IMG/VR virus record: IMGVR_UViG_3300050023_000090
Location: 1 to 51,637 of that record
Source of the DNA: a virus
Lineage: Duplodnaviria; Caudoviricetes
Direction: 5' to 3' (one strand)
DNA length: 51,637 nucleotides
Position numbers and translations under genes: made by a program. Under the pieces are notes generated by a model. It did not search any database, had not been told where the DNA came from, and worked only from the letters and a program-made list of their open reading frames with translations. Each line of letters begins with the position of its first letter. The stretch's first letter is position 1. This document shows, in pieces, positions 1 through 51,637 of the stretch.

Positions 1-126
1 TCTGAAGAACGCAATCAGGCGCGCAGACCGAGACAGCGATCCACACCTCGCGTCAATCCTTCGAGACTTGGCATCCGGTGCGATCGAAGTAGTCGAACGC
101 ACGCCCCCCGAAGCGCACGCCGAGGC
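1..126 (+). repeat. Terminal direct repeat, identical to 50860-50985
   Basis: tctgaagaacgc...cacgccgaggc occurs at both 1-126 and 50860-50985; the copies diverge at the next base (g vs a). Confidence 0.97.
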
Positions 127-550
127 GGGGGATGCGAAAGCCCTGGTATGGATTCGCAAGAAGCTCGGCTTGCCAGAAGATGCCCAGATGTTCAGAGGGT
201 CGGACACGATTGCGGGAAAACTGCACAACCTGTGCTTTGACGCCCACGGCTATCAGACCTACATCGTCGCGTACAAATGCGATGACAAACAAGGTGAGAT
301 TGCAAGGCTTACCGTAAGAGCCGAACGCGCCGAGGACAGAATCAAGGAATTGGAAGCTCGCGTCCCCGCCGCGATCCCCGAGGGACTGTTGGAGCTTCTC
401 AAGGATGCGATGCAACTACTTCACGGGGTAGGAATGTGGAAGCACCAGGACATCGAAGACCAGTGGAGAATGAGCTACAAGGAAGTAGCTGAACGATACG
501 CCGCCCTGCGCGCCTCCCCCTCAGCGCCAAGTGAGGGAGTGAGAGAATGA
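2..550 (+). CDS. C-terminal part of a modular hypothetical protein; N-terminus supplied across the circular junction by the ORF at 50837 or at 51425
   Basis: Frame is open from the window edge and passes through the PPEAHAEA repeat; coiled-coil segment; stop overlaps the next ATG (ATGA). Confidence 0.7.
   Translation: MKNAIRRADRDSDPHLASILRDLASGAIEVVERTPPEAHAEAGDAKALVWIRKKLGLPEDAQMFRGSDTIAGKLHNLCFDAHGYQTYIVAYKCDDKQGEIARLTVRAERAEDRIKELEARVPAAIPEGLLELLKDAMQLLHGVGMWKHQDIEDQWRMSYKEVAERYAALRASPSAPSEGVRE
103..145 (+). repeat. Terminal direct repeat, identical to 51595-51637; contains the 24-bp cassette repeat gccccccgaagcgcacgccgaggc
   Basis: Exact 43-bp match to the last 43 bases of the window. 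The 24-bp core also occurs at 50962-50985. Confidence 0.97.
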
Positions 551-1155
551 AGGTTATACCCTGCACGATCTCGCGCGCAAAGGAAATCGTGCGCCTTTAT
601 CATCGACACAATCGGCCTCCCGTCTCTGGCCTATTTGCTATGGCCGCCGAGCTTGACGGCGAGACAATTGGGGTTGCTATCGTCGGCCGTCCCGTCGCAC
701 GGGCTTTACAGGACGGCTTCACTGCAGAGGTTACGAGGACTTGCACCCTCCCCGGGGCACCGAAAGGTGCCGTCTCTTTTCTCTACTCCGCCTGCCGCCG
801 GGCCGCGTTCGCCCTCGGCTATCGAAAGCTCATCACATACACACTGGCGTCTGAGAGTGGGGCAAGCCTCCGGGGAGCTGGATGGCAGATGGAAATGGAA
901 TTGAAGCCACGGCCGGGGTGGGACGCGCCATCACGGAAAAGAGGAGAGGGAACGGTGGATAACGTTGCAAAGCGCAGATGGGCCGCCACAGAGAGATGGC
1001 TTGCCAATCTCCAACCCCCAGAGCTGATAAGGGATTCGTGGGCAAGTGATCCCGACGACGACTTCAAGGGAATGTACGGAACTTCGAAGCCTGCCTCAGA
1101 AGAATCGACCAATGCCAAGACCCCCGAACCGCCGCAAGGGGAGGCCGGGGCGTGA
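547..1155 (+). CDS. XF1762-family / Mom-like GNAT-fold protein, putative DNA modification
   Basis: Motifs HRHNRPP, GVAIVGRPVAR, EVTRTC, SFLYSACRRAA, GYRKLITYTL, ESGASLRGAGW are typical of XF1762/Mom-like proteins. Confidence 0.75.
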   Translation: MKVIPCTISRAKEIVRLYHRHNRPPVSGLFAMAAELDGETIGVAIVGRPVARALQDGFTAEVTRTCTLPGAPKGAVSFLYSACRRAAFALGYRKLITYTLASESGASLRGAGWQMEMELKPRPGWDAPSRKRGEGTVDNVAKRRWAATERWLANLQPPELIRDSWASDPDDDFKGMYGTSKPASEESTNAKTPEPPQGEAGA

Positions 1156-1156
1156 G
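1121..1156 (+). repeat. 36-bp direct repeat, copy 1 (encodes PEPPQGEAGA-stop plus the overlapping GTG start of the next gene)
   Basis: cccccgaaccgccgcaaggggaggccggggcgtgag is identical to 1777-1812. Confidence 0.97.
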
Positions 1157-1811
1157 GATTCTCGTGGCGTGCGAGTTCAGTGGTATCGTCCGAGAAGCCT
1201 TCCGCGCTCGGGGACACGATGCGTGGTCGTGCGACCTTCTGCCTACCGAGAAGCCGGGACCGCACATCATGGGCGATGTTCTGGACGTGCTCGGCGACGG
1301 ATGGGATTTGATGATAGCGCATCCGCCGTGCACGCATCTTTGCGTCAGCGGGGCGCGCTGGTGGAAAGAAAAGATTTCAGACGGACGACAGGCCAGGGGC
1401 GCGGAGTTTTTCATGCGATTTGTCAACGCACCTATTCCAAGAATTGCCGTTGAGAATCCAATAGGTGCCATGTCACGTCTGTACCGGAAGCCAGATCAGA
1501 TCATTCAACCGTTTTGGTTCGGCAATAGCGTGCAGAAGGCAACGTGCCTATGGTTGAAGGGTCTTCCTCAGCTCGAAAAAACAAACGTTGTGGATCGAGG
1601 AATGATCTACGTAGACCCTCGCGGTCACAAGCACGGTGGGGAGTTTACCATTCGAGGGAAGCGCGCCTATTCACCGTTGATGCTCCTTCCAAGGAGTGAA
1701 GGCCGCTGGGCGATACGGAGCCGGACGTTCCAAGGCATCGCCGATGCGATGGCTGAACAGTGGGGTTCCCTCCACTCCCCCGAACCGCCGCAAGGGGAGG
1801 CCGGGGCGTGA
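1152..1811 (+). CDS. Phage DNA cytosine methyltransferase-like protein, paralog 1
   Basis: MRILVACEFSG N-terminus, DLMIAHPPCT (motif IV PC), IAVENP (motif VI), KATCLWL and RSRTFQGIADAMAEQW. Confidence 0.75.
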   Translation: MRILVACEFSGIVREAFRARGHDAWSCDLLPTEKPGPHIMGDVLDVLGDGWDLMIAHPPCTHLCVSGARWWKEKISDGRQARGAEFFMRFVNAPIPRIAVENPIGAMSRLYRKPDQIIQPFWFGNSVQKATCLWLKGLPQLEKTNVVDRGMIYVDPRGHKHGGEFTIRGKRAYSPLMLLPRSEGRWAIRSRTFQGIADAMAEQWGSLHSPEPPQGEAGA

Positions 1812-1812
1812 G
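1777..1812 (+). repeat. 36-bp direct repeat, copy 2
   Basis: Identical to 1121-1156. Confidence 0.97.
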
Positions 1813-1984: not shown

Positions 1985-2274
1985 TCGATGCTATCTTATC
2001 TTTTCTCAACTCCCCCGTTCCTCGCCTGGTCTACATCCCTCCCAACGACTTACAATACGCTTTCGTTACGCTGGGGGGGATGCTCATCCTAGTCCTCTTT
2101 CCATGGGTCGTCTTTTGCGTTGCTATACGGAATGGCATTGACGGCTGGAAAGCGGTCGCTCGCGCCTTCAAAAGGAAGCAACCTCTTCTCTTGAGGAAAA
2201 TCCTTATCGGCGCGTGGAAACCGCTTCCTTTCTATGATCCCATTAAACAAAAGGAGAATATCAAAGGCTTATGA
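1981..2274 (+). CDS. Hypothetical membrane protein
   Basis: Hydrophobic segment FVTLGGMLILVLFPWVVFCVAI; ATGA coupling at both ends. Confidence 0.6.
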   Translation: MIDAILSFLNSPVPRLVYIPPNDLQYAFVTLGGMLILVLFPWVVFCVAIRNGIDGWKAVARAFKRKQPLLLRKILIGAWKPLPFYDPIKQKENIKGL

Positions 2275-2516
2275 AACATCTACATCTCATGATGGTCGAG
2301 GAGAAAACAAAACAGGATTTCATCGACACGGTGAACTTCGAGCTGTATGACAAGGACGTGTTCTCCGTCAAGTTCCAGCGCAACCTCTACTACACGGGGG
2401 TCGGCTCCTCTGACGGCTACAAGGGGAAAACCAAGGGCTTCAAGAAGGTAGCCTCCGGCGAGGTTAAGCTCGAAGAGAGCTTCATTGGATTCATTTGCTA
2501 TAAGGGAGGAAAATAG
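2271..2516 (+). CDS. Hypothetical protein
   Basis: ATGA overlap with the upstream gene; fills the gap before the radical SAM gene. Confidence 0.6.
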   Translation: MKHLHLMMVEEKTKQDFIDTVNFELYDKDVFSVKFQRNLYYTGVGSSDGYKGKTKGFKKVASGEVKLEESFIGFICYKGGK

Positions 2517-2517
2517 C

Positions 2518-5028: not shown

Positions 5029-5426
5029 CCCCCCACGACGAGAACCTTTCCCACTTCCACGGGGATGCCTGGATTGCAAAAAAGTCTCCTCTCGACTGGG
5101 AGAACTTCTTCTCCGCCCTCCGCGAAACAGGAGGGGCCATCACCTCTGTCGAAGCGGCCCTCTATCACGACTACAAGAGAATGGTTCTTCTCGCCGAGAA
5201 ACTTCCCGATCAGGTCCGCCTCCGCGAGCAAGCCAAAGCCATCGGTCTCCTCCAGCACGAACGGGGTCTTCTTCGGCAAGCCTTGTCCGCCCTGAAGGTT
5301 GAGCTTCTCGCTCAGGTCCGCGGTATCGATGCCTTTATCGGGGCAACGCCCCCGGTCGCCAACGGCGAGGACGACCGTGCGGACAGTGATCCCCCGAAAA
5401 AAGGGAAAGGAGGCCTTGGGGACTGA
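5025..5426 (+). CDS. Hypothetical protein
   Basis: RBS ggagg, ATGA overlap, predicted helical content. Confidence 0.65.
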   Translation: MTPHDENLSHFHGDAWIAKKSPLDWENFFSALRETGGAITSVEAALYHDYKRMVLLAEKLPDQVRLREQAKAIGLLQHERGLLRQALSALKVELLAQVRGIDAFIGATPPVANGEDDRADSDPPKKGKGGLGD

Positions 5427-5514
5427 ACACGCCCCGTCTTCTCGCATCTCCAGAGGCGTTGCCTCTGACGAATCAAGGGAAGTCTGGCCCCTTGCCAGAC
5501 ACAGGAGTTTTTCT

Positions 5515-5955
5515 ATGGCAAAGACAGTCGTGAAAGGCCTCTCAAAGAATCCCGGGATCGTGAACACTCCCTACGCCCCCGGCTTCTACAAGTTTGAAGT
5601 CACCGGGGGAGAAGAAACTACTTCCCGAGCAGGGAACACCATGTTCGTTCACACGATGAAAATCCTCGAAGGTCCTGATCAGGACAGGAAGATCGAAGGC
5701 GGCAAGTTCACCGTGCGCTTTCCCATCACCGAGGCGGAGTTCACCGTCGCCAAGCTCAAGGACTTCATCGTTGCCTGCGCCATGCGCGTCGCCTCCGATG
5801 ACGGCTACGACCCCGCGAAGGCAATCGGCAAGGAAGTCTGGGGCCAGATGACCCTCGGCACCGGCCAGCAAGGCACCCCCCAGGCCCAAGTGAACAAGTT
5901 CTACAGCGAGGAAGACTTCCAGGCTCTCGCCAAGCCCTCGGACACGGACGACTGA
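5515..5955 (+). CDS. DUF669-like single-stranded DNA-binding protein
   Basis: PGFYKFEV...ETTSRAGNTM...KILEG OB-fold pattern and acidic C-terminal tail (SDTDD); RBS aggag before ATG 5515. Confidence 0.7.
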   Translation: MAKTVVKGLSKNPGIVNTPYAPGFYKFEVTGGEETTSRAGNTMFVHTMKILEGPDQDRKIEGGKFTVRFPITEAEFTVAKLKDFIVACAMRVASDDGYDPAKAIGKEVWGQMTLGTGQQGTPQAQVNKFYSEEDFQALAKPSDTDD

Positions 5956-6940: not shown

Positions 6941-7257
6941 AAAGGCTTCTCTGCATCCTATTTTTGGTCTTTATGGTCACTGGCCTTCAGGCGGAAGCGA
7001 CCGTTCTCCCAGAGGGCACAGTGATTTCGAAGCCGGGGACTCCTACCGTTGTCCTTAGCGATTCCCATTTTCTCCTCACTCGGGAGGACATGGAAGTGGC
7101 GGCCCTTGCAATGGAAACAGTCCTTATTCGCGACGACCAGATTTTGAAGTTGACCGCCTCTTGGAACGATCTTGCGGGAAAGGTCATCGTCACCGGAGTC
7201 GTTGCGGCTGCCGCAACCTTCTTAGCCGTTGAATTGTTCCACGCCTTACGGAGGTAA
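6937..7257 (+). CDS. Secreted or membrane protein with signal peptide and C-terminal TM helix
   Basis: Signal-like MKRLLCILFLVFMVTGLQA and C-terminal VIVTGVVAAAATFLAV. Confidence 0.55.
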   Translation: MKRLLCILFLVFMVTGLQAEATVLPEGTVISKPGTPTVVLSDSHFLLTREDMEVAALAMETVLIRDDQILKLTASWNDLAGKVIVTGVVAAAATFLAVELFHALRR

Positions 7258-7258
7258 G

Positions 7259-9888: not shown

Positions 9889-11280
9889 GTGGAAGCCCCC
9901 CAGCCTCTCTGCTATCAAGGCAAACCCTTCTGGGCCTGCGATACCTTTGACAGGTTCCTCCCCAAGACGCGGGGCTTCCTTAACGACTTCGTTCTTTCTT
10001 TGCGGGGCCAGGAGGTTCCCGTAGCCTTCTCTCTCTGGTCTGCGTTGGTTACGCTCTCCACCGCCTTGAAAAGGGAGACGTGGCTCAAGTGGTCTGAAGA
10101 TCCTCTCTATTCCAACCTCTATCTCGTCCTGGTGGCCCCGGCAGGAATGGCAAAGAAAAGCGTCCCCATCAATCTTGGGTGTCTTTCCCTTTCCGAGATG
10201 CCTGACTATTTCACCGACCTCAACATCTCCGCCATGAAACAAATAAGTGTCTTCCGTGACAAGATAACAGGAGAGGCCATCTCGAAGTTTCTCTCCAAGA
10301 AGATGCGCCCTCTCCACGTCAACCTCGTCGATAAGCACGGGAAACCTCTCCGTCTCACCAAGGGAGGCCCCATCGAAACCTATCTAAAGAGCGCCGAGGT
10401 CCTTCTCGTTGCCCCCGAGCTGGGAACGATGCTCTCCCGGGCCAAGTACAATGAGGACCTTATTACGACGCTCACCAAGCTCTACGACACTGAGAGTCCC
10501 TTCGAGAACACCACCGCGGGCGGGGGCCAGAAACGTCTCCCCCGTCCCTTTGCCTGTCTCCTCGGAGGGACGACCCCCTCCGCTTTGCGAGACTCCATCC
10601 CGAAGTCCGCCGTCGATGAGGGCTTCCTCTCCCGCCTCATCGTCTGCTACCAGCCCAAGGCAGCGAGCCTCTTTCATCGTCCCCGCCCCATGGACATTCC
10701 CCGCAAGGAGATCGCCTCCCGCCTCGCTTGGATTGCTCAGTATACCGCGGGCCAGTGGGACCTCACTCCCGAAGCGGATGCCTTCTACGAGAAGTGGTAC
10801 ATCCGGATTCACACCCACTACGATACGCTCCGCTTCCATCCCGCCCAGAAGTCACGCTTTGCCATCCACGTCCTGAAGGTCGCGCTCCTTTTCAGCGCCC
10901 AGCGCTATGAGAACCACCTTGACAAGAAGAAGAGGGTAATTGACCTTCAAGCCGTGAAGGAATCCATCGCCCTCGTGGAGGAGACGATGCAGGTCGCCGT
11001 TCCCCTCATCGAGGAGACTGAAGCCAATCCCGCTCAGCGTCTCCAGATTAGGATCTTCAAATACATCTCCGAGAGAAGGAGCGCAACCCGCAAGCAACTC
11101 CTCCAGAACGCCCACCTTACCTCTGGGGAGGCCACTGCCATCGTCTCTGACTTGTACCAAGCGGGCCGCATCAGGTGCACCTCCGGAAACGCCCCAACCT
11201 TCGACCTGCGCGAATCCTATTGCTCGGTTAAAGACGCCAAGATCAAGGGGAAAGAAGAAAAAGATGAAGCCCTCTCCTGA
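9889..11280 (+). CDS. DUF3987/YfjI-type AAA+ putative replicative helicase, without a primase domain
   Basis: NLYLVLVAPAGMAKKS (Walker A-like), LLVAPELG (Walker B-like), LTKLYD, LLGGTTP, GFLSRL (Arg finger) and a winged-helix-like C-terminus. Confidence 0.75.
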   Translation: MEAPQPLCYQGKPFWACDTFDRFLPKTRGFLNDFVLSLRGQEVPVAFSLWSALVTLSTALKRETWLKWSEDPLYSNLYLVLVAPAGMAKKSVPINLGCLSLSEMPDYFTDLNISAMKQISVFRDKITGEAISKFLSKKMRPLHVNLVDKHGKPLRLTKGGPIETYLKSAEVLLVAPELGTMLSRAKYNEDLITTLTKLYDTESPFENTTAGGGQKRLPRPFACLLGGTTPSALRDSIPKSAVDEGFLSRLIVCYQPKAASLFHRPRPMDIPRKEIASRLAWIAQYTAGQWDLTPEADAFYEKWYIRIHTHYDTLRFHPAQKSRFAIHVLKVALLFSAQRYENHLDKKKRVIDLQAVKESIALVEETMQVAVPLIEETEANPAQRLQIRIFKYISERRSATRKQLLQNAHLTSGEATAIVSDLYQAGRIRCTSGNAPTFDLRESYCSVKDAKIKGKEEKDEALS

Positions 11281-35306: not shown

Positions 35307-37058
35307 TTACATCCCCGTCACTTTACATCGTGTCGGATCGCTTCGATAGAGTTCTTCTTCGAACTCGTCCGCGTCCATCTCCTCTTGGGAAGACGGAACC
35401 GTCAGGTCGGTCAAGCCTTTTTCGAAAGCGTCCAAGGCGTCCATCTTGAACTCGTTATTCGGGAATAACATTCTCTCTTCCTCAAAATCTTTTTCCTCCC
35501 CCTCCACGACCCAGACGAGGCCACGCATCAGGGAACGACCTACATTTGTCCTGATGCGGGCTGTCTTGTCTCCCTTGGCAGGGATGGGAACCGGATTGAT
35601 GTAGTAGCCGCGAGTTCTGCGTTCCTTCTCAAGGAGCGGGGCAATGATCGTCTGCATCGCATTGCTTTCGACGCCGACCTTCGAGATAAGACCGTCGAAC
35701 TTCTTACAGCCCTCGAAGATGTAGTCGAAGACCGTCTCGATGGTGAAATACCCGACTCGCGCCCAAATGAGGACGGCCCTCTCCTGCGAGTCGAGCCCTA
35801 TAATTTCGATGGCGGTCTTTGATGCCTTCGCGGAGATGCCCCGATTCGTTCCCGCGGGATCCACGTACATCCCGATGGCGAGCGATCCGAGGCGCGTCAG
35901 CGTAATGGGGAGGTCGTCTTCCCAGTTGGAAAGTTCGTTGTCGGCAAGCTGACTCCACCGGATGAAGTACTCGCCCCGCTTGGGGGACCACATCAAGCCG
36001 CAGCGTTTCGTCTCCAGCTTGTAGAACTCGGAGACGGCGGGATCGTGGGCCTTGTTCGCATACTGGGTGATCGCGGTCCACGGGTCATCCTGGAGGAGCT
36101 TGGCATAGGTGGCCTTGTTCATGACCTCCGGGAAGACTTCGATTCCGTCTTCTTCCCATGAGCGATAATAAACGGTCCACACTCCCGTCTGGGAGACAGC
36201 GAACTCAGGCGTCAGGAAGCCCTCAATCTTCTTTGCATCGTTCATGATCGCCGAGTGAACATCGTCGGCGCCATAAAAAGTGCCGCGAAGATTTATTCTG
36301 GAGTTCAGATCAACGAGAAGAGTCGTGGCGTTCGTCGCGAACCACTTCTTCTTTTGCATCATCGAAGCGTTGCTTCTATGCTGGGCATCCACGTCTTCAA
36401 GGCCATGGATATCGTCGATGTCCAGGAGGTCAACGTGGACACCTTCAGAGGCGCCGGTGGCACCCCCCGCAGAGATCGTAGGCTCCGCGTAGTTGCGAGT
36501 CCTGTTAGGGAGGACGAACTCGGATTCGTTCCAGCGAGACGCTGACTTGCCGGGAACATACTCGGGAAAGAGAAGGGCGAACCACCCGTTCGAGTCGAAG
36601 GTTGCTTTGGCCAGGTTCTTGAAGGTGTGGGCTCGCTCAACTATTTCGGAGATAAGGCGGATCCTGATGTTCGGATTGCGGAGGGCCTCCCACGAATCTG
36701 CTCCGTGCCCGCAGACGGTTGACTTATAGGAGGAACGGAAGATGATTTCCGCTGCGCGAGCGCCATCCTTCATGGAGGCTTCGCTCTGCCTGAAGTTCGC
36801 CATGTCGAGATGGAGGGATTCGTTGAGCTTCTCGTAGGGACCCGAGAAGGCGGCAACCTGAGTGAGAAAGAAGAAAAGGGAGACGAGGGATGCCTGGCGG
36901 ATGAGGGCGGTCATCATGTCGGAGGCGGAAACCTTCCCGGATTCGAGGTCACTTCTTATTCTTTCGATGAGGAGCCGGGGATTGCGGACATACTTCTTTG
37001 CGAAGAGAGGGGCGTCTTCGTGAGGAAGGATCTCGAACTTCGACTTGGGACTTCTCAA
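35307..37058 (-). CDS. terL: Terminase large subunit
   Basis: Walker A-like FRSSYKST, GVHVDLLDIDD (Walker B), coupling motif GTFY, RNase H motifs YVDPA, GVESNAMQ, KTARI and DALDA. Confidence 0.92.
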   Translation of the reverse strand: MRSPKSKFEILPHEDAPLFAKKYVRNPRLLIERIRSDLESGKVSASDMMTALIRQASLVSLFFFLTQVAAFSGPYEKLNESLHLDMANFRQSEASMKDGARAAEIIFRSSYKSTVCGHGADSWEALRNPNIRIRLISEIVERAHTFKNLAKATFDSNGWFALLFPEYVPGKSASRWNESEFVLPNRTRNYAEPTISAGGATGASEGVHVDLLDIDDIHGLEDVDAQHRSNASMMQKKKWFATNATTLLVDLNSRINLRGTFYGADDVHSAIMNDAKKIEGFLTPEFAVSQTGVWTVYYRSWEEDGIEVFPEVMNKATYAKLLQDDPWTAITQYANKAHDPAVSEFYKLETKRCGLMWSPKRGEYFIRWSQLADNELSNWEDDLPITLTRLGSLAIGMYVDPAGTNRGISAKASKTAIEIIGLDSQERAVLIWARVGYFTIETVFDYIFEGCKKFDGLISKVGVESNAMQTIIAPLLEKERRTRGYYINPVPIPAKGDKTARIRTNVGRSLMRGLVWVVEGEEKDFEEERMLFPNNEFKMDALDAFEKGLTDLTVPSSQEEMDADEFEEELYRSDPTRCKVTGM

Positions 37059-38380: not shown

Positions 38381-38647
<267 letters not shown>

Positions 38648-42642: not shown

Positions 42643-42897
42643 ATGCGAATCGTAATTCATCTCGACGGCGGCCTTGTCCAATCTATTTTCAGTGAAATGT
42701 CGGAACCCATCGAGGCCCTCATTATCGACCACGATACCGACTCCGGAAACGAAGACGACCTGGCTCAAACCCTTGAGGGGAGTTTCTTCACGCGCATCGA
42801 AACCTCCGAAGTTGACGAAGGCATCGTCCATGACGAGTTTACTCTCTTCGACGCGGGCACAATCCTTTCCGCGATCCTTCCCGAGAAAAAGAAATGA
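42643..42897 (+). CDS. Acidic hypothetical protein
   Basis: MRIVIHLDGGLVQSIFS...IIDHD; RBS aggagg. Confidence 0.7.
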   Translation: MRIVIHLDGGLVQSIFSEMSEPIEALIIDHDTDSGNEDDLAQTLEGSFFTRIETSEVDEGIVHDEFTLFDAGTILSAILPEKKK

Positions 42898-43022
42898 AGT
42901 GCATCCGTCTTCTCTCCACCGGCAAGTTGATGCGCGTCCCCTCCTTCCAGGCCCTCTCGATGGTCGAAAGCAAGCTGGCCGTCTTCATCTCGAAAGAAGA
43001 GTACAAGGCGGCAAAGAAGTGA
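42894..43022 (+). CDS. 42-aa hypothetical protein (absent from ORF track)
   Basis: MKCIRLLSTGKLMRV...ISKEEYKAAKK; ATGA overlap. Confidence 0.5.
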   Translation: MKCIRLLSTGKLMRVPSFQALSMVESKLAVFISKEEYKAAKK

Positions 43023-43027
43023 AAAAG

Positions 43028-43651
43028 ATGCGCGTTCTCGTAGCCTGCGAGTTCAGCGGGATTGTCCGTAACGCCTTTGTCCGAGCTGGTCATGATGCCA
43101 TATCATGTGACCTGTTGCCAAGTGAAACCGAACGGCCTGACGGATGGGACGGGCATTATCAAGGAAATGTGTTAGAGCTGCTGTCAGACAAATCCTATTC
43201 GTTTGACATGATGATAGCCCATCCTCCATGTACCTACCTGTGCAATTCAGGAGTCCGCTGGCTTGCACCGGGAGGAGTACTTGAACCAAAGCGCCACAAG
43301 CTCATGAAAGAAGCCTGTGACTTCTTTGCCACTCTCTATTGGGCTGACATTCCTCATATCGCCATTGAAAATCCAATCATGCACAAGTACGCACGAGACT
43401 ACTTGATGTCAGTATGGAAAGTTCCCACCTTCACACAATCAATTCAACCTTGGCAATTTGGTCATGGTGAAGTAAAAAGAACGTGCCTTTGGCTCCGAAA
43501 CCTTCCCAATCTCAAACCTGAAAAAATTGTCAAAGGGCGCTCTCCACGCATTCATCACATGGCACCAAGTCTTGACCGTGCGAAAGAACGCAGCCGCACA
43601 TACCAAGGCATCGCCGATGCAATGGCTTCTCAATGGAGCAATTTGAAGTGA
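43028..43651 (+). CDS. Phage DNA cytosine methyltransferase-like protein, paralog 2
   Basis: MRVLVACEFSG, MIAHPPCT, IAIENP, KRTCLWL and RSRTYQGIADAMASQW. Confidence 0.75.
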   Translation: MRVLVACEFSGIVRNAFVRAGHDAISCDLLPSETERPDGWDGHYQGNVLELLSDKSYSFDMMIAHPPCTYLCNSGVRWLAPGGVLEPKRHKLMKEACDFFATLYWADIPHIAIENPIMHKYARDYLMSVWKVPTFTQSIQPWQFGHGEVKRTCLWLRNLPNLKPEKIVKGRSPRIHHMAPSLDRAKERSRTYQGIADAMASQWSNLK

Positions 43652-45379: not shown

Positions 45380-46711
45380 TTGCCTGACGAAATCGACCCC
45401 CTTGATTACGACCATCAGACCGTTTCGCTCCGCGAAAGCGTCCTTCTTGCCATCGAGGCGGCCAAAGTGGGCCAAGTTATGGGCGCCCAGCAAGTCATTG
45501 GCAACTTCAGAAAGAAGTACGACTCCGATCTTGTTCCCCCCGAGCTGGACTTTCCCGAGCCCATCATTCCCAGCGACGCGATCCCCTTCCACCTTACCTA
45601 CGCTGACGGCGACAAAGAAGCAGGAATGCCCCTTCCGAATATGGATATCGACCCCCAAGACGGCATCATCCTTGAGAACTTCGGCACCCTTCGCCAATGG
45701 GGCCGCGAGTGGGTCGCCAACCTCGGCGGGAACGCCTCCCTCGTCCACGAGGACCACGCCAAGCGAGGCCCCCTTATCCAAGCCCATACCCTTGACCTCT
45801 CGCACGTCAAGGACCCCACCCAAGCCGTTGTCTGCGGCTCCGGGGCCTCCCTCGAAGACCTCAAATCGCTTCTACCCGCTTTCCCTGGCGTGGTCCTCTG
45901 CGGCGCCTCCAACGCCTCCACCGTCCTGGCCGCGGGAAGAAAACCTGACGCCATCCTCTCCCTCGATGCAGGCTCCGCCACGGTCGATCATCTCAAGGAG
46001 TGCCCCTACGACGAGATGGGCATCCCCCTCATTACCTCGACGATCATGCACCCCGATGTCCCACGTCTCTTCCCCACCACGAGGAAGTGGTTCACCTCCC
46101 TGATCCAGATGGGCGCTGGCGCCAATCATCCCTTCAACGTCTTTTCCCAGCTCATGTTTCCCTTCATCAATAGCTATATGTTCCAAGCGGGCTGTACCAT
46201 CAATGGTGAACTTCTCCTGCTCAATATGATGGAAGAGATGTCCTACGCAAAATTTGATGCGGTCTACCTCCTCGGGGTCGATTTCTGCTACAAGAAGGAC
46301 GCCCCCCGCTGCAAAGCGTACAAGTACGTCAACGATTCTGATGATTTTGACGATCCCTCTTTCGTGGAGCTTCCCCCGAATACCAAGAATGGCGTCCCCA
46401 CCACGATTCCCATTCGCCGCTCCTGGAACGGCCTCATCACCGATCAAGTCATGCTCGAATACAAGCGTTCCCTTCTCACGTTATGGGTCATCACAAAGCT
46501 CCCCTTCTACGATTGCTCATCTGGAATACTTACGGAGGTACCGCGTGCCAACTTTGAAGAGCTTGCCAAGACGGGTTTTGGAGCCAGGCCCCCTGCCTAC
46601 GACTACCAGTACATACTCAGTGCCTACAACGCATATCTCACCCGACTTGGTTACGTACCAGGAAAGGATGCGGGTTCTGAGGGAGAACCGCTCGACGATC
46701 TCCTATGGTAA
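45380..46711 (+). CDS. Maf_flag10 / MptE-like (DUF115) protein, putative glycosyltransferase
   Basis: AVVCGSGASL, LAAGRKPDAILSLD, AGCTIN and VYLLGVDFCY match the MAF/MptE-like motif order. Confidence 0.75.
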   Translation: MPDEIDPLDYDHQTVSLRESVLLAIEAAKVGQVMGAQQVIGNFRKKYDSDLVPPELDFPEPIIPSDAIPFHLTYADGDKEAGMPLPNMDIDPQDGIILENFGTLRQWGREWVANLGGNASLVHEDHAKRGPLIQAHTLDLSHVKDPTQAVVCGSGASLEDLKSLLPAFPGVVLCGASNASTVLAAGRKPDAILSLDAGSATVDHLKECPYDEMGIPLITSTIMHPDVPRLFPTTRKWFTSLIQMGAGANHPFNVFSQLMFPFINSYMFQAGCTINGELLLLNMMEEMSYAKFDAVYLLGVDFCYKKDAPRCKAYKYVNDSDDFDDPSFVELPPNTKNGVPTTIPIRRSWNGLITDQVMLEYKRSLLTLWVITKLPFYDCSSGILTEVPRANFEELAKTGFGARPPAYDYQYILSAYNAYLTRLGYVPGKDAGSEGEPLDDLLW

Positions 46712-48107: not shown

Positions 48108-49027
48108 AAAAGTTTCCTCTTCCCCTTATCCCCACCGGCGCCTCCGAGAGCGGCTCTCACTACACCGGCCTCTTCGCCAATTGCAGCTGGAAGTTTTATA
48201 TGCGCTTCGTCCGCGGGTGGAAGCCCCTCAAGACCTCTTCTCCCCTTCTGAATGGATCCTGTTTCCACTTCGCGAAGGCTGTCTTCTACGCGACAGGCTC
48301 CCAGAGTGAAGCCCTCAAGGCAGTGGCCAGGTTTCTTGCAACGATGCGCAAAGAGTACGAAAGCGAAGACGAACTCAATCTTGCCCGCCTGCGTCTCCCT
48401 TCGATGGTCTCCTCATGGATTGCCAAATACGGCTTCCAGGACTTGAAGAGGTATACCTTCCTTGAAATCGAGAAGGAGCACTCCATCACGCTCCTTGGCG
48501 GCTTCCGCTTCACCTTCCGTCTCGATGCCCTCGTTCGCGACCGCGACAAGAACCTCATCATCCTGGAGACGAAGACCTCGGGATGGCGCCCCGAGCTGGC
48601 CGAGCTGGAGATTTTCAACGGCGACCAGGCAACCGCCTATGTAGCCTCTGTCTCCGAGCTGTACAAGACGCCTCCCAAACGTATTTATCTCCTGCCTGAC
48701 ATAACCTCGTGGCCGAAGAAATCCACGAAGGTCTCCCAGATCAACTGCTATCGAGGCGAACTTGTCCAGAGGACCGAGAAAGACATCGAAGAGTGGAAGC
48801 TGGGCAAGTCAAACGAGCTGGCTGAAATATCTCAGAAGGTCGAAGCCCTCAAGACTCACTCGGAGTATGCTCTCTTCAGACGGAATACTTCCTGGTGCAC
48901 CTCTTTTTCTCGTCCGTGCGAGTTCATCTCCGTATGCAGGCAACGCTTTCCCGCAGGGCATATCCCCTACGGCTTCCGGAAAGATTCCGACCTCCCCGAC
49001 TTGTTCCCCAAGAAAGGAAAGAAATGA
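48104..49027 (+). CDS. PD-(D/E)XK exonuclease, Cas4/AddB-like with Fe-S staple
   Basis: NCSWKF, GSCFH, EIEK, RLDAL, ILETKT, QATAY and C-terminal WC....PCEFISVC. Confidence 0.85.
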   Translation: MKKFPLPLIPTGASESGSHYTGLFANCSWKFYMRFVRGWKPLKTSSPLLNGSCFHFAKAVFYATGSQSEALKAVARFLATMRKEYESEDELNLARLRLPSMVSSWIAKYGFQDLKRYTFLEIEKEHSITLLGGFRFTFRLDALVRDRDKNLIILETKTSGWRPELAELEIFNGDQATAYVASVSELYKTPPKRIYLLPDITSWPKKSTKVSQINCYRGELVQRTEKDIEEWKLGKSNELAEISQKVEALKTHSEYALFRRNTSWCTSFSRPCEFISVCRQRFPAGHIPYGFRKDSDLPDLFPKKGKK

Positions 49028-49176
49028 AAAAGAAGAAGATCACGATTGAGGACCTTATCCGAAAGGAAGGTCGAGAACCGGGAGGAATGGTTAATTTGGC
49101 TTCAATTTGGATAAGATACGCCACTCCTTCAGCCGCCTTCTTTGATTGGAAGGGTGTATATGGGAGCCAAAAGTGA
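49024..49176 (+). CDS. Hypothetical protein
   Basis: ATGA overlap with the nuclease gene. Confidence 0.4.
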   Translation: MKKKKITIEDLIRKEGREPGGMVNLASIWIRYATPSAAFFDWKGVYGSQK

Positions 49177-49258
49177 GGCGATTGAAGTTTTTTGTGTTGT
49201 GGATCCGCGCCGCATTTCGACTCACTCGAATCGTGTGGAGTGGAAAGGTTCCTGATAA

Positions 49259-49669
49259 ATGGGACTTCTGGAAGGCAACCGGGCCGATGATGAACTTTTG
49301 CAGGAGACCCAGATGAAAAGCGATAATGAAATGGCCGAGATCGCCCGTCTCTTCTACGATGCATACATGGAGGCCGCTGAAGAGGCCAAACCCGGCTCCG
49401 CCGACCGCCTGAAGGTTGCCTTCCACGGCATCACCGCGGTCGGTGCTGCCTTTCTCGGATCCCTCATCGGTTCCTTCTATAAAGAGCGCCCCTGGAAGAG
49501 GCATGTCTTCTTCACTGGGATTGCGATGAAATCCCTCAAGATCGGCGTGGTCGGTCTCTTCCCGGGTGTCTTTACCAGACAAGAAGCTGTCTCCGCGTGG
49601 AACATATGCGCCGAGTCCCTTGTCAGGAGTCCAGAGTTTTTCCTTCCCGAAGAAAGCGAGGCCAAGTAA
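49259..49669 (+). CDS. Hypothetical protein (true start may be near 49313)
   Basis: Open frame ending in a TAATG overlap with the ATPase gene. Confidence 0.55.
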   Translation: MGLLEGNRADDELLQETQMKSDNEMAEIARLFYDAYMEAAEEAKPGSADRLKVAFHGITAVGAAFLGSLIGSFYKERPWKRHVFFTGIAMKSLKIGVVGLFPGVFTRQEAVSAWNICAESLVRSPEFFLPEESEAK

Positions 49670-50364
49670 TGCCCTTCACCTCAAGCGAAGCCAAGCGCGT
49701 TCCCTTCTTTCCCTCCATCCTGCTCTCGGGTCACTCAGGCTCAGGGAAAACGTACAGTGCCCTCCTCATGGCGAAAGGATTCGGCGGAAAAGTCGTCCTG
49801 ATCGATACTGAGAACAAACGCGCCCTTGTCTACGCGAACCTCTTCAAGTTTGAGCACATCGTCTTTGAGGCTCCCTTCACCCCTGAACGCTGTCGGGAAG
49901 CGATGAAGCTCGCCATCTCCAAATCGCCCAACGTCATCATCTTCGACTCTGCAACGCATGAGTGGTGGGGGAAGGGTGGCATCCTCCGCGAGAAAGACGA
50001 GATGCCCGGTACGAACGATTTCGTGAAGTGGGGCAAACTAACCCCCCGTCACGAGAGCTGGGCGGGAATGCTTACAATCAACCCCAAGTGTTTCCACATC
50101 GTAACGTGCAGGGCGAAAGAGAAGTCGAAAATGAAGAAGAATGCCGAAGGAAAGCTCGAAGTCGTTCCTCTTGGGATGAAGCCCATCCAGCGCGACGACT
50201 TCGCTTTCGACTTCTCCTTCGGCTACCTTATTCAGCATGACTCTCACAAGATCAAAATCTTGAAATCCATCGAGGAGGCCCCCGAGCCTGACGGACTCCT
50301 CACTCCCGACTTCGCATCGCGTCTTGCCGCTTGGACTCTGATGAAGAAAGGAAAGGCGAAATGA
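49669..50364 (+). CDS. AAA_24 / Sak4-like recombination ATPase
   Basis: GHSGSGKT (Walker A), IDTE, IIFDSATHEW, WGKLTPRH and GMKPIQRD. Confidence 0.85.
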   Translation: MPFTSSEAKRVPFFPSILLSGHSGSGKTYSALLMAKGFGGKVVLIDTENKRALVYANLFKFEHIVFEAPFTPERCREAMKLAISKSPNVIIFDSATHEWWGKGGILREKDEMPGTNDFVKWGKLTPRHESWAGMLTINPKCFHIVTCRAKEKSKMKKNAEGKLEVVPLGMKPIQRDDFAFDFSFGYLIQHDSHKIKILKSIEEAPEPDGLLTPDFASRLAAWTLMKKGKAK

Positions 50365-50840
50365 CCGCATACCCTGTAACCAATCTATCCAGCAAGGGGG
50401 GGGAGATGCCGGAGCGTTGTCTTTGCACCTCTGACGAGAACGGTCCGCACTTCAACGGCTGTACCATCCACGGAAGCTACCATACCCCACCCGCCACCGC
50501 TGGCACTTCGCGCCATCATTCAGGAATCGGTAGATTGGTCTACGCCAGCGATACCGACGATATCGGCCAGTGCTGGTGTGGTGATTGCAGGGAATGGATT
50601 CCTGCCGACAAGTGGAACCAACCATGTCTCTCAAAACGGGAGAGGAGAAAGAAGAACCGACGAGTCTCCGCTGGCACCGAGGGGCCGGGGCTGAGAGAAG
50701 CGCTTGATCTATTGCGGCGTGTTTGCGAATGGCACGCGCAGGAGACCATATACCCGACTCCCGAATGTATCGGAGAGGCGCGAAGGTTTGTTAGGCGAAC
50801 AAACCTCGCCCTCGCCCGCGTGGAAGGAGAGAAGAAATGA
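50361..50840 (+). CDS. Modular hypothetical protein with Cys motifs
   Basis: ATGA overlap; internal 10-bp in-frame repeat ccgctggcac at 50497 and 50668. Confidence 0.55.
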   Translation: MTAYPVTNLSSKGGEMPERCLCTSDENGPHFNGCTIHGSYHTPPATAGTSRHHSGIGRLVYASDTDDIGQCWCGDCREWIPADKWNQPCLSKRERRKKNRRVSAGTEGPGLREALDLLRRVCEWHAQETIYPTPECIGEARRFVRRTNLALARVEGEKK

Positions 50841-51166
50841 AAGCAGTTGACGTGAAGATTCTGAAGAACGCAATCAGGCGCGCAGACCGAGACAGCGATC
50901 CACACCTCGCGTCAATCCTTCGAGACTTGGCATCCGGTGCGATCGAAGTAGTCGAACGCACGCCCCCCGAAGCGCACGCCGAGGCAGCTATCGAGAAGTT
51001 GAAGATGGACGCCGAGCACTTGCAGTATGAACGTGATGAGGCGCGGGAAAAGCTCGCCGCCATGGAAGCTCCCGTGGATTCATTAGGTGACCTACCCTCA
51101 TCGTGGCCAACCAACGAGGCAGAGAGCGCCGCCCTTTCAGAGGCGCGGAAGGAGAACACCCCATGA
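50837..51166 (+). CDS. Modular hypothetical protein containing the PPEAHAEA linker repeat
   Basis: RBS aaggag; ATGA overlap; contains 24-bp repeat copy A. Confidence 0.65.
   Translation: MKAVDVKILKNAIRRADRDSDPHLASILRDLASGAIEVVERTPPEAHAEAAIEKLKMDAEHLQYERDEAREKLAAMEAPVDSLGDLPSSWPTNEAESAALSEARKENTP
50962..50985 (+). repeat. 24-bp direct repeat, copy A (left border of the 633-bp cassette)
   Basis: gccccccgaagcgcacgccgaggc is identical to 51595-51618 and 103-126. Confidence 0.97.
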
Positions 51167-51435
51167 TGAGAGAGAAACTTGAAGCGCTGGCGAAGCATTA
51201 CGAGGATCTTGGTGAGCAGGCTTATCGCGTTAATCACGTCATACCTGATATGTACTTCGGACCAGCGCAAGCAATCCGCGCGATCCTCGCCGCCGAACCC
51301 GATCCTTACCTGCGCGATGCCGTGGTGGACATCGTCTGGTGGGGCGAGAGAATGCAACTCGGAGTTGACCACACGGCTGACCGCATCTGCGCCCTGTTTG
51401 AGGGGGGGGGGGGGGGAGAAAAGAATGGCAACTAA
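51163..51435 (+). CDS. Hypothetical protein ending in a poly-G-encoded Gly run
   Basis: RBS aaggag; MMREKLEALAKHY...LFEGGGGGEKNGN. Confidence 0.6.
   Translation: MMREKLEALAKHYEDLGEQAYRVNHVIPDMYFGPAQAIRAILAAEPDPYLRDAVVDIVWWGERMQLGVDHTADRICALFEGGGGGEKNGN
51402..51416 (+). repeat. G15 homopolymer tract
   Basis: 15 consecutive G, counted directly. Confidence 0.9.
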
Positions 51436-51637
51436 GGGATACCTGATGCTACTCGGAGGGATGCGGGAAATTGAACGCATCCTAAGAGAGCGCATGCATG
51501 AGGATGAGGCTACGATCAAGGAATGTGGAGTCCCGATGCTCGTTGAATCCATGGCAGAGCAGATCGAGGAATTGAAAGCGCAACTGGCGGCTAAGCCCCC
51601 CGAAGCGCACGCCGAGGCGGGGGATGCGAAAGCCCTG
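51425..51637 (+). CDS. N-terminal part of a modular protein that continues across the junction into 146-550
   Basis: MATKGYLMLLGGMREIERILRERMHED...AAKPPEAHAEAGDAKAL is open to the window end and in frame with 2-550. Confidence 0.7.
   Translation, partial: MATKGYLMLLGGMREIERILRERMHEDEATIKECGVPMLVESMAEQIEELKAQLAAKPPEAHAEAGDAKAL

What the first reader, a model, noticed from the sequence alone, without database searches (positions are those of the whole stretch)
50860..51637. A 633-bp cassette present in both inserted and deleted states, swapping protein N-termini in frame
Seen in the sequence: a 24-bp repeat (gccccccgaagcgcacgccgaggc, encoding PPEAHAEA) occurs at 50962-50985 and 51595-51618, 633 bp (211 codons) apart. 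Bases 1-145 are exactly the recombinant junction: sequence upstream of copy A (1-126 = 50860-50985) joined to sequence downstream of copy B (103-145 = 51595-51637). The contig can therefore close as two circles, 51,492 bp with the cassette or 50,859 bp without it. The C-terminal domain at 127-550 then carries either the MATKGY... or the MKAVDV... N-terminus, both in frame. Inference: both alleles exist in the population and arise by microhomology recombination, plausibly via the phage's Sak4-like ATPase, Cas4-like nuclease and DUF669 SSB encoded nearby on the circle.
Basis: partly seen in the sequence, partly recalled or inferred. Interest (0 to 1): 0.85.

Follow-up and report, generated by a model that had tools for sequence, protein, structure and literature searches.

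The report
Repeat-flanked phage gene cassettes, present or deleted
A phage genome from peat carries short exact repeats around small blocks of genes, and public sequencing data hold phage copies both with and without one such block, which is a familiar kind of phage gene shuffling caught while both versions coexist.

Summary
Window 1-126 equals 50860-50985 and 103-145 equals 51595-51637. The 24-mer occurs only at 103, 50962 and 51595. The window is one complete tailed-phage record, and its two ends carry two alleles of one locus.

The short allele is not an assembler chimera. In k=31 Logan contigs of 4 peat runs, 31-mers specific to the deletion junction are present in 2 of 4. One of these may be the source sample and the other is an independent study. 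The cassette-form junctions are seen in all 4.

The same 3-kb stretch shows more of the same thing. A 656-bp DNA-methyltransferase cassette is flanked by exact 36-nt repeats and is missing from part of the population. A third short conserved sequence ('box') joins the downstream gene to a different upstream sequence in another run.

The repeats are conserved boxes. They encode Pro/Ala/Glu/Gly-rich linkers or C-terminal tails, and boxes 3 and 4 also carry the ribosome-binding site and start codon of the next gene. They recur in related proteins between different modules.

[quoted passage not shown] Near-identical cases are published for mycobacteriophages (29-bp and ~50-bp repeats). Interest is moderate.

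The parts
1..145 (+). Junction of the short (cassette-less) allele. It consists of 102 nt of sequence upstream of copy A, one 24-nt box (103-126), and 19 nt of sequence downstream of copy B.
   Evidence: exact identities. X2 record 7 (36 nt = 97-132, 0 differences, depth 4) and X9 record 21 (97-613, 0 differences); the six 31-mers of 97-132 occur once in the window, and the 36-mer differs by 5 nt from each cassette-form junction.
50962..50985 (+). Box 1 copy A (encodes PPEAHAEA), inside ORF1.
51595..51618 (+). Box 1 copy B (encodes PPEAHAEA), inside ORF3.
50986..51618 (+). The 633-bp cassette unit (609 nt of unique interior plus one box). It holds the C-terminal 59 aa of ORF1, all of ORF2, and the N-terminal 57 aa of ORF3.
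   Evidence: loose ends behind 126 (sequence to the right of copy A) in 4 of 4 runs, and before 103 (sequence to the left of copy B) in 3 of 4 runs. GC is 0.575, like the flanks.
50837..51166 (+). ORF1, 109 aa (MKAVDV...). It is a mosaic of an N-terminal module, box 1, the EKLKMDAEHLQYERDEAREKL module and the SSWPTNEAES module.
   Evidence: each module recurs in other proteins in other contexts. No Pfam or PHROG family.
51163..51435 (+). ORF2, 90 aa, entirely within the cassette. Its 3' end contains a 15-nt poly-G run.
   Evidence: Its N-terminal MMREKLEAL is shared with P0046. No family.
51425..51637 (+). 5' part of ORF3 (MATKGY...). It continues across the circle junction at 146-550, for 205 aa in all.
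128..550 (+). Shared C-terminal part carried by both alleles. It holds the conserved core (WIRKKLxLPxD...HGYxxYIxAYKCDDKQGEIARLTV), the PAAIPEGLL box, a C-terminal module, and box 3.
   Evidence: AlphaFold model is all-helical, mean pLDDT 80. No PDB fold match at E<=0.001.
501..550 (+). Box 3 (ALRASPSAPSEGVRE plus stop). It contains GAGGGAG and the ATGA stop/start overlap with the next gene. It is a junction to alternative upstream sequence in other genomes.
   Evidence: X3 record 14 ends at 530, record 16 (different upstream sequence) ends on 501-530, and record 15 starts at 501. X2 record 10 matches only 498-539 with unlike flanks; the box is present in P0035 and P0038. One search gives the sequence.
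547..1155 (+). Mom-like DNA modification gene, 202 aa, ending in box 4 (PEPPQGEAGA plus stop).
   Evidence: phrog_1384, 1.5e-29, residues 1-131..
1121..1156 (+). Box 4 copy 1 (36 nt). It is the tail and stop of the Mom-like gene, and it carries a GGGGAGG ribosome-binding site and the GTG start (1152) of the methyltransferase.
   Evidence: contigs of X1, X2 and X3 end exactly at 1156.
1152..1811 (+). DNA methyltransferase, 219 aa. It forms a second cassette of 656 bp and ends in the same box-4 tail.
   Evidence: phrog_757, 6.5e-65; typical homologues are about 205 aa and cover 94-95% of the query; 19 of 20 fetched homologues lack the tail. One search shows the polymorphism.
1777..1812 (+). Box 4 copy 2. 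It is the tail and stop of the methyltransferase and carries the GTG start (1808) of a 58-aa downstream ORF. A G/T difference at 1787 marks this copy in 3 runs.
   Evidence: T at 1787 in the cassette contigs of X1, X3 and X9. The 35-nt records 1783-1817 with G (X1 depth 2, X3 depth 5.3) are the junction without the methyltransferase.
49597..50364 (+). AAA_24 ATPase, weakly Sak4-like. It is a candidate recombination function and its role is not shown.
5575..5895 (+). DUF669 match inside a 218-aa ORF (5299-5955).
   Evidence: 26.7 bits, cut-off 21.

Best explanation
The window is a complete circular tailed-phage genome from peat. The assembler walked both arms of a real population bubble, taking the short arm at the contig start and the long arm at its end.

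In the phage's early/replication gene block, small modules are separated by short conserved 'boxes' of 24-50 nt.
- Box 1 encodes a Pro/Ala/Glu-rich linker (PPEAHAEA) in the same frame in ORF1 and ORF3.
- Boxes 3 and 4 encode a C-terminal tail plus stop, and overlap the ribosome-binding site and start codon of the next gene.

Recombination between two copies of a box removes or adds what lies between them, and always leaves intact reading frames. It could act within one genome, between concatemer or sister copies, or between co-infecting relatives.
- Box 1 recombination removes 633 bp and fuses the ORF1 N-terminus to the ORF3 core, giving 190 aa instead of 109 + 90 + 205 aa.
- Box 4 recombination removes a 656-bp methyltransferase gene and leaves the Mom-like gene untouched.

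Shown: the repeats, both alleles in public data, the in-frame outcome, and the recurrence of the boxes.

Inferred: that the event is homology-driven (annealing or strand exchange at 24-36 nt of identity), which enzymes do it, and the direction (loss versus gain).
For: 1. Exact repeats and geometry.

2., Logan contigs (31-letter words, per the tool text) of 4 runs laid on window 1-3000, shows the exact graph expected for a mixture.
- In X2, a 12.5-kb contig ends exactly at 126.
- In X2, a 36-nt record equals 97-132 (depth 4). This is the short-allele path.
- In X2, a 63-nt record equals 97-126 plus 33 nt of cassette (depth 14.8).
- In X2, the next contig starts exactly at 103.
- In X9 (another study), one contig ends exactly at 126 and a 517-nt contig equals 97-613. 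A loose end also leads into the cassette.
- The short allele is therefore found in 2 of 4 runs. The junction upstream-of-copy-A/cassette-interior is in 4 of 4, and the junction cassette-interior/downstream-of-copy-B is in 3 of 4.

3. My arithmetic on the depth bins gives about 9.2 for the unlisted X2 record carrying the cassette-side junction at copy B, and about 3.2 for the unlisted X9 record leading into the cassette. That puts the short allele at very roughly a quarter (X2) to 40% (X9).

4. Flanks are identical in all four runs. The only listed difference in 3 kb is G>T at 1787.

5. The second cassette behaves the same way.
- Contigs end at 1156 in X1, X2 and X3.
- The 35-nt junction records are in X1 and X3, where the cassette's own copy carries T.
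- All laid records of X1 (5) and X3 (7) are listed, and none links the methyltransferase 3' end to a G-type box.
- In X2 the cassette depth is 6.7 against 14.8 and 15.8 for the flanks.

6. Box 3 joins alternative upstream sequence in X3 and sits in a third context in X2.

7. Boxes recur in relatives between different modules.
- P0002 has two PPEAHAEA boxes around a different in-frame module.
- P0038 has PPEAHAEA, PAAIPEGLL, SPSAPSEGV and EPPQGAGA in the window's order.
- P0035 has an alternative module between PAAIPEGLL and SPSAPSEGV.
- The box-4 tail ends unrelated proteins: Mom-like, the methyltransferase, P0038, P0047 and P0167.

8. No site-specific recombinase, no Rfam family, and no promoter, terminator or hairpin at the boxes.

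9. Published precedent (PMC3029335, passages read): a 1.35-kb insertion flanked by 29-bp direct repeats in LRRHood, and Island3 gene 68 sharing its C-terminal 18 residues (~50 bp) with the upstream gene.
Against: - By the read laying rule (31 letters on both sides) neither junction record counts as bridging. Each has 30 letters left of 126|127, and only 6 of those are specific to the upstream-of-A side. My reading rests on de Bruijn logic plus the window's own contig, which carries 102 nt on the left.
- X2 may be the sample the window was assembled from. It is then an independent assembler but not an independent sample, which leaves X9 as the only independent support.
- X1 and X3 show no short-allele record, although contigs drop rare variants.
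- Only contigs were available, not raw reads. Frequencies come from contig mean depths and my own bin arithmetic and are rough. Some depth sums do not add up (for example X3: 8.3 + 5.3 flowing into 6.5).
- In X2 the methyltransferase-less form is not resolved by topology, because both box copies carry G.
- The window itself has G in copy 2 together with the cassette. A G-type cassette haplotype therefore exists somewhere, and it could in principle give the 35-nt record.
- No DNA of relatives could be fetched, so box conservation is shown at protein level only, in few proteins. PPEAHAEA occurs in 2 of 44 non-self proteins among the 46 fetched.
- Nothing shows which enzymes act, or whether the short form is a loss or the ancestral state.
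Confidence: 0.75

Rival explanations
1. Assembler chimera. The first 145 bases were mis-joined through the 24-nt repeat, and only the cassette form exists.
For: The contig ends are odd (126-nt and 43-nt overlaps that fit no single k). IMG/VR classes the record as linear. X1 and X3 show no short-allele record.
Against:: an independent k=31 assembly holds the six junction-specific 31-mers in X2 (36-nt record, depth 4) and in X9 (517-nt contig). Neighbouring contigs end and start exactly at the branch points a real mixture predicts. The 36-mer differs by 5 nt from either cassette-form junction, so sequencing error cannot make it.
Confidence: 0.05
2. The polymorphism is real but arises by replication slippage (copy-choice) between the direct repeats, with no role for the phage's recombination genes.
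For: The repeats are short (24 and 36 nt) and close together (633 and 656 bp). From general knowledge (recalled, not read here), that is the range where recombinase-independent slippage deletions are common. The phage has its own DNA polymerase (7229-9841).
Against: Slippage explains loss only. It does not explain the same boxes joining different modules in other genomes (for X3 and X2 at box 3). Sequence alone cannot separate the two mechanisms for the deletion itself.
Confidence: 0.2
3. The short form is ancestral and the cassette is a gain. It would have been brought in by recombination with a relative at the box, or by Campbell-type integration of a one-box circle, as proposed for PeSL mini-circles.
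For: One box copy on each side is what single-crossover integration of a circle leaves. PMC2839356 (passages read) shows such circles between flanking repeats in T4-type phages. A 99%-identical methyltransferase with a different tail after SPEPP (P0047) suggests the methyltransferase cassette sits in more than one context.
Against: The ORF3 N-terminus (…AEQIEELKAQLAA before the core) resembles the helical lead-in that other family members have before WIRKKL. No protein with the ORF1 N-module fused to the core was found among the 38 hits. The cassette form is the majority in X2 and is the only form seen in X1 and X3. No circle junction was looked for.
Confidence: 0.3
4. A programmed switch: a site-specific recombinase excises the cassette at the boxes to change the protein's N-terminus on purpose.
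For: The outcome is in frame, and both states coexist at appreciable frequency in two runs.
Against: There is no tyrosine or serine recombinase in the genome (the controls matched in 14 of 14 and 12 of 14 genomes). The boxes have no inverted-repeat or hairpin character. The same behaviour occurs at two other, unrelated boxes.
Confidence: 0.03

Closest known systems
Insertions flanked by short direct repeats in mycobacteriophages (LRRHood genes 43-46 with 29-bp repeats; Island3 gene 68 versus gene 67). PMC3029335, passages read.
   Same: A gene block is flanked by exact or near-exact direct repeats of about 30-50 bp, with a single copy in the form lacking the block. The inserted gene shares its C-terminal residues with the upstream gene, exactly as the methyltransferase and Mom-like genes share PEPPQGEAGA here. 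[quoted passage not shown]
   Different: There the two states lie in different isolated phages. Here both states are in the same natural population and in more than one sample. One event here fuses two ORFs in frame, and the boxes recur in several relatives.
PeSL mobile regulatory cassettes of T4-type phages. PMC2839356, passages read; PMC4122927, search listing only.
   Same: Repeated short motifs flank small ORFs of unknown function in a hyperplastic early region. Recombination between neighbouring motifs deletes, inserts or replaces ORFs. The motif brings expression signals for the next gene.
   Different: PeSLs are intergenic promoter plus stem-loop terminator units. The boxes here lie in coding sequence, show no promoter, terminator or hairpin, and supply a peptide linker or tail plus ribosome-binding site and start. 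Mini-circles were not tested here.
Conserved-motif recombination inside phage genes: glycine-rich motifs of the gp38 adhesin. PMC3157838, abstract and passages read. Tetart et al. 1998 is known to me by its title in that reference list only.
   Same: Short conserved in-frame motifs separate variable segments, so that exchanges keep the reading frame and give chimeric proteins.
   Different: The glycine-rich motifs form the structural core of one host-range protein. Here the boxes look like flexible linkers and tails between unrelated small early proteins and even whole genes.
Relaxed homologous recombination by phage annealing recombinases. PMC3945230, passage read; PMC2327257, search listing and abstract start only.
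   Same: The repeat lengths here (24 and 36 nt) sit at the quoted minimal efficient pairing segments (23-27 bp for Red-beta, 31-34 bp for RecA). The phage encodes an AAA_24 ATPase, a DUF669 protein and exonuclease-like genes.
   Different: No Rad52-like recombinase was identified here, and no activity was tested.

Membership tests
Direct-repeat (short conserved boundary sequence) indel polymorphism | Exact direct repeats at both ends of the segment, with one copy left at the junction of the short form. | tested here: met
Direct-repeat (short conserved boundary sequence) indel polymorphism | Both forms exist as DNA outside the contig in question. | tested here: met
   the short-form junction is in X2 and X9 (2 of 4 runs), and the cassette-form junctions are in 4 of 4 and 3 of 4. 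Only 6 specific nt lie on each side in those records.
Direct-repeat (short conserved boundary sequence) indel polymorphism | The same boundary sequence is found at module junctions in other genomes. | tested here: met
   At protein level. At DNA level, for box 3 only: (X3 record 16, X2 record 10). Exact box-1 and box-3 words were not found in IMG/VR.
PeSL-type mobile regulatory cassette | The motif is made of a sigma-70-type early promoter plus a stem-loop terminator and lies between genes. | tested here: not met
   The boxes lie inside ORFs. There are no promoter-like or terminator-like sites at them. Folding is no better than shuffles (z from -0.17 to 0.93).
PeSL-type mobile regulatory cassette | Circular excision products (mini-circles). 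| not tested
The junction left-of-copy-B joined to right-of-copy-A was not looked for.
Site-specific recombination cassette (integron, shufflon or invertase type) | A tyrosine or serine recombinase is encoded in the element. | tested here: not met
   no match to PF00589 or PF00239 at E<=0.01. Controls matched in 14 of 14 and 12 of 14 genomes.
Assembly artefact | The junction has no support outside the contig. | tested here: not met
   X2 record 7, X9 record 21; uniqueness of the 31-mers.
Intron or other self-splicing insert | A recognisable ribozyme, with removal at RNA level only. | tested here: not met
   0 Rfam matches at gathering score in the whole window. The runs are listed as DNA, with a question mark.
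   AAA_24 2e-08; phrog_124 Sak4-like only 5e-5, against phrog_1366 (unknown function) 1.5e-54. DUF669 is met. Cas_Cas4 and PDDEXK_1 are not met. PHROG exonuclease hits.

The most novel reading that the evidence does not exclude
The boxes are not leftovers of past exchanges. They are a maintained set of portable in-frame junctions shared by a group of peat phages. Each box is a neutral linker or tail peptide which, in boxes 3 and 4, also carries the ribosome-binding site and start of the next gene. Any module dropped between two boxes is then expressed at once, as a domain or as a whole gene. This would be a coding-sequence counterpart of the PeSL cassettes, giving a standing pool of chimeric early proteins and optional DNA-modification genes within one population.
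Probability: 0.3. Interest if true: 0.6.

Novelty: new member of a known kind. Interest (0 to 1): 0.4.

Why it matters
Short conserved boundary sequences have long been proposed as one route to phage mosaicism. They are rarely seen at mosaic joints, and are usually inferred from comparing different isolates (PMC3029335, passage).

Here the two states of at least one such event, and probably three, coexist in uncultivated phage populations in peat. The flanks are identical, so the process is recent or ongoing. The events change protein architecture and the complement of DNA-modification genes.

There is also a practical point. The allele mixture hid the terminal overlap, so the record is filed as linear although it closes as a circle. 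Contig ends of this shape can be mined as markers of structural polymorphism.

Tried and rejected
- **Relatives' DNA.** The exact 24-mer was not found in viral contigs. In metagenome contigs it gave one unrelated gene, L001. A degenerate back-translation of PPEAHAEA gave 8 unrelated loci in viral contigs. The exact 30-mer of box 3 gave nothing. The tools say that the window's own and very near records may be left out, so these blanks are weak.
- **Relatives by the core domain.** The search for related loci with the core-domain alignment gave 8 viral loci. Seven are identical to each other over the fetched stretch apart from 99.98% in one. It also gave 2 Pirellulales MAG loci. All share only the core domain, and the two distinct viral loci examined (L010, L017) have no repeats of 16 nt or more. 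They say nothing about the boxes or the host. blastn against 50,697 phage records found no match.
- **Function of the core domain.** No Pfam or PHROG family. The AlphaFold model is all-helical with pLDDT 80 and pTM 0.38. Foldseek against PDB gave 0 matches at E<=0.001. Function stays unknown.
- **Structure or signal in the boxes.** No fold beyond shuffles, no promoter or terminator, no Rfam family.
- **Site-specific recombinase.** None found.
- **Compositional foreignness of the cassettes.** None (GC 0.575 and 0.581 against 0.548-0.574).
- **HMMER scan of 1.84 billion representatives with P0038.** It gave only 3 hits, so it did not enlarge the box census much.
- **Parts without cover** (X2 1678-1782, X9 gaps) prove nothing. 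The word shares of 0.77-0.82 for X5-X9 tempted me to read them as cassette-less. Only X9 was laid, and it holds both forms, so I draw nothing from the other shares.
- **Closed or unavailable.** Supplements of the papers were not opened.
Full report
**What is in the sequence**

The window is the whole record. It is one contig of 51,637 bp, an IMG/VR virus record that CheckV rates as 100% complete and that is filed as 'linear'. It is a tailed phage:
- DNA polymerase (7229-9841)
- primase/helicase (9889-11280)
- large terminase (35307-37058, minus strand)
- tail-fibre and virion proteins
- several DNA-modification genes

Bases 1-126 equal 50860-50985, and 103-145 equal 51595-51637. The 24-mer occurs at 103, 50962 and 51595 only, even with 3 mismatches allowed, and no match appeared in 100 shuffles. 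Identity between copies A and B ends exactly at the 24 nt.

The contig closes as a circle of 51,492 bp with the 633-bp segment, or 50,859 bp without it. The long form encodes three ORFs:
- ORF1, 109 aa
- ORF2, 90 aa
- ORF3, 205 aa, running across the circle junction

The short form fuses the first 50 residues of ORF1 to the last 140 of ORF3, giving one open 190-aa frame.

**Is the short allele real?**

Twenty public runs, all peat, permafrost or bioreactor metagenomes, hold parts of 49000-51637. Twelve hold half of the sampled words or more, and all are kept as Logan contigs. I laid four of them on window 1-3000: X1 and X2 (either may be the source sample), and X3 and X9 (other studies).

A mixture of both alleles predicts a de Bruijn branch at the last 30 nt before the end of the box (97-126) and a merge at the first 30 nt from its start (103-132). 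A 36-nt path, 97-132, would then be private to the short allele. X2 shows exactly this:

| X2 record | Position on the window | Depth |
|---|---|---|
| 12.5-kb contig | ends at 126 | 15.4 |
| 36-nt record | 97-132, no differences | 4 |
| 63-nt record | 97-126, then 33 nt of cassette | 14.8 |
| next contig | starts at 103 | 14.8 |
| loose end | 176 nt of the sequence to the left of copy B, before 103 | not listed |

In X9 a contig ends at 126 and a 517-nt contig equals 97-613. A further record runs from 126 into the cassette.

The 36-mer differs at 5 positions from each cassette-form junction, and its six 31-mers occur once in the window. X1 and X3 show only the cassette-form junctions.

Counts over the 4 runs laid:
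- short allele: 2 of 4
- upstream-of-A to cassette interior: 4 of 4
- cassette interior to downstream-of-B: 3 of 4

Caveats:
- The junction records carry only 6 specific nucleotides on each side of the box, so they do not meet the tool's own 31-letter bridging rule.
- X2 may not be an independent sample.
- Only contigs were available, not reads.

Against these caveats, the window's own contig comes from another assembler and carries 102 nt on the left and 50 kb on the right.

From the depth bins I estimate the unlisted records at about 9.2 (X2, the cassette-side junction at copy B) and about 3.2 (X9, leading into the cassette). The short allele would then be roughly a quarter of the X2 population and around 40% of X9. 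These are rough figures.

The flanks are otherwise identical in all four runs. One G>T at 1787 is the only listed difference. The two alleles therefore sit in the same strain background.

**The same stretch holds more events of the same kind**

*The methyltransferase cassette.* The only other long direct repeat in the genome is an exact 36-mer at 1121-1156 and 1777-1812, 656 bp apart. It forms the last 11 codons and stop of both the Mom-like gene (547-1155) and the methyltransferase (1152-1811).

The 36-mer contains a GGGGAGG ribosome-binding site and a GTG that overlaps the stop. In copy 1 that GTG starts the methyltransferase. In copy 2 it starts a 58-aa ORF.

The tail is foreign to the methyltransferase family:
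- Homologues are about 205 aa and cover 94-95% of the query.
- 19 of the 20 that I fetched, out of 120 listed, end soon after ...QWG with unrelated tails.
- The phage's own paralogue (42674-43651, 43% identity) stops at ...QWSNL.

In one search, contigs of X1, X2 and X3 end exactly at 1156. In X1 and X3 the cassette contig carries T at 1787. A separate 35-nt record, 1783-1817, carries G (depth 2 and 5.3, against 7.3 and 8.3 for the cassette). All laid records of these two runs are listed, and none links the methyltransferase 3' end to a G-type box. The G path can therefore only be entered from copy 1, which makes it the methyltransferase-less junction.

In X2 both copies carry G, so topology is silent, but the cassette has depth 6.7 against 14.8 and 15.8 for the flanks. 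X9 shows only the cassette form.

*Box 3.* In X3 the contig carrying ORF3 (depth 4.2) ends at 530. A second contig with unrelated upstream sequence (depth 4.3) ends on 501-530. The Mom-like contig (depth 10.9) starts at 501. Two genome types therefore share the downstream gene and part at the ALRASPSAPSEG box. In X2 a 217-nt contig matches only 498-539, with unlike sequence on both sides.

*A shared module inside the cassette.* The contigs running from upstream of copy A into the cassette in X1, X2 and X3 all stop 33 nt into it (51018). That point lies inside the module AIEKLKMDAEH|LQYERDEAREKL, which six other proteins carry in quite different contexts. It is probably another shared segment that makes the graph branch.

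**What the repeats are**

Homologues of the fused protein (38 hits) share a conserved core, W[IV]RKKLxLPxD...HGYxxYIxAYKCDDKQGEIARLTV, with unrelated N- and C-terminal parts. The closest relatives reuse the window's boxes:
- P0002 has two PPEAHAEA boxes in one ORF, around a different module.
- P0038 has PPEAHAEA, PAPAAIPEGLL, ALRASPSAPSEGV and EPPQGAGA in the same order as the window, with different modules between them.
- P0035 has an alternative module between PAAIPEGLL and ALRASPSAPSEGVRE.
- P0007 joins ORF1's SSWPTNEAES module to ORF3's C-terminal module.

The box-4 tail closes five unrelated proteins or modules:
- the Mom-like protein of the window
- the methyltransferase of the window
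- P0038
- P0047, a methyltransferase 99% identical to the window's that ends ...HSPEPPKAGKP
- P0167

The census is small. PPEAHAEA is in 2 of 44 non-self proteins among the 46 held. I could not obtain DNA of these relatives.

The boxes show no hairpin, no promoter or terminator and no Rfam family. The genome has no tyrosine or serine recombinase.

**Mechanism**

The best reading is homology-driven exchange at short conserved boundary sequences. Because each box is read in the same frame on both sides, or carries the stop, ribosome-binding site and start, every exchange yields intact genes.

The box lengths of 24 and 36 nt are at the published minimal pairing lengths: 23-27 bp for Red-beta and 31-34 bp for RecA (PMC3945230, passage read).

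The phage encodes an AAA_24 ATPase that is only weakly Sak4-like, a DUF669 protein and exonuclease-like proteins. A Cas4-type nuclease is not confirmed. Their involvement is inference.

Replication slippage could make the deletions equally well. It cannot explain the same boxes joining other modules elsewhere. Whether the short form is a loss or the ancestral state is open. I lean to loss for three reasons:
- ORF3's own N-terminus looks like the lead-in seen in other family members.
- No relative with the ORF1 N-module on the core was found.
- The long form is the majority.

**Comparison with what is known**

The kind is known. In mycobacteriophages, LRRHood carries a 1.35-kb block flanked by 29-bp direct repeats that are single in its relatives. 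Island3 gene 68 shares its last 18 residues (~50 bp) with the upstream gene 67. [quoted passage not shown] The methyltransferase cassette here is the same picture.

PeSL cassettes of T4-type phages work alike and yield mini-circles (PMC2839356, passages read). They are intergenic promoter-terminator units, a feature tested here and not met.

The in-frame aspect resembles the conserved glycine-rich motifs between variable segments of gp38 (PMC3157838, passages read).

No paper in the searchable library holds any of the four box or core peptides.

**Verdict**

It is a new member of a known kind. The added value is that both states, and probably three such joints within 3 kb, coexist in natural populations. 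The boxes recur as in-frame, expression-ready junctions. Interest is 0.4.

Noticed in passing
window 1121-1156 and 1777-1812 (cassette 1157-1812): A second repeat-flanked cassette. An exact 36-nt repeat ends both the Mom-like gene and a DNA methyltransferase. Contigs of X1 and X3 hold a junction without the methyltransferase, and X2 has less than half depth over it.
   Followed up: yes
window 498-550: The ALRASPSAPSEGVRE box, which carries the ribosome-binding site and start of the Mom-like gene, is where a second genome type with different upstream sequence joins the same downstream gene in X3. It also sits in a third context in X2.
   Followed up: partly
window 50986-51050: Contigs of X1, X2 and X3 all stop 33 nt into the cassette (51018). 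This is inside the module EKLKMDAEHLQYERDEAREKL, which six other proteins carry in other contexts. It is probably another shared segment. The alternative path was not seen.
   Followed up: partly
window 51402-51416: A 15-nt poly-G run in the 3' end of ORF2, a few bases upstream of the ORF3 ribosome-binding site and start. Logan contigs of X1, X2 and X3 begin just after it (176-178 nt before 51595). It could be a sequencing weak spot or a length-variable tract.
   Followed up: no
window 1787: G in the window and in X2, but T (synonymous, CCG to CCT) in the methyltransferase-cassette contigs of X1, X3 and X9. The window's two box-4 copies are therefore identical, while in most runs they differ by one base.
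   Followed up: partly
window 42674-43651: A second methyltransferase of the same PHROG (phrog_757), 43% identical to the cassette one, with a 118-residue N-terminal extension and no box tail. It shares an 18-nt word with the cassette copy (1730-1747 / 43603-43620).
   Followed up: partly
whole window: The record is filed as linear because its ends do not overlap directly. The allele mixture at the ends hides a circle of 51,492 or 50,859 bp. ORF1's protein cluster is also seen on a 51,748-bp contig.
   Followed up: yes
P0002 and P0004 (relatives' proteins): Both lack the 23 most conserved residues of the core (HGY...IARLT) as a clean in-frame gap, although the flanks are 60% identical to the window's protein.
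   Followed up: no
window 547-3540 and 45380-46711: A cluster of DNA-modification candidates: a Mom-like protein, two methyltransferases, a radical-SAM/QueE-like protein (2485-3540) and an MptE-like domain protein (45380-46711).
   Followed up: no
window 38444-38470: A short run of a 3-nt tandem unit (24 nt self-similar at offsets 3, 6 and 9).
   Followed up: no
L001 3145-3170: An unrelated metagenome contig shares 26 exact bases with the short-allele junction (window 102-127), including the whole box, inside an unrelated gene that also reads PPEAHAEA. No other similarity, so it is taken as coincidence.
   Followed up: yes
P0046: A partial protein from a Terracidiphilus MAG (Acidobacteriota) combines ORF2's N-terminal motif with ORF1's EKLKMDAEH module. 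This is a weak hint at the host group. The core domain alone also occurs in two Pirellulales MAGs.
   Followed up: no
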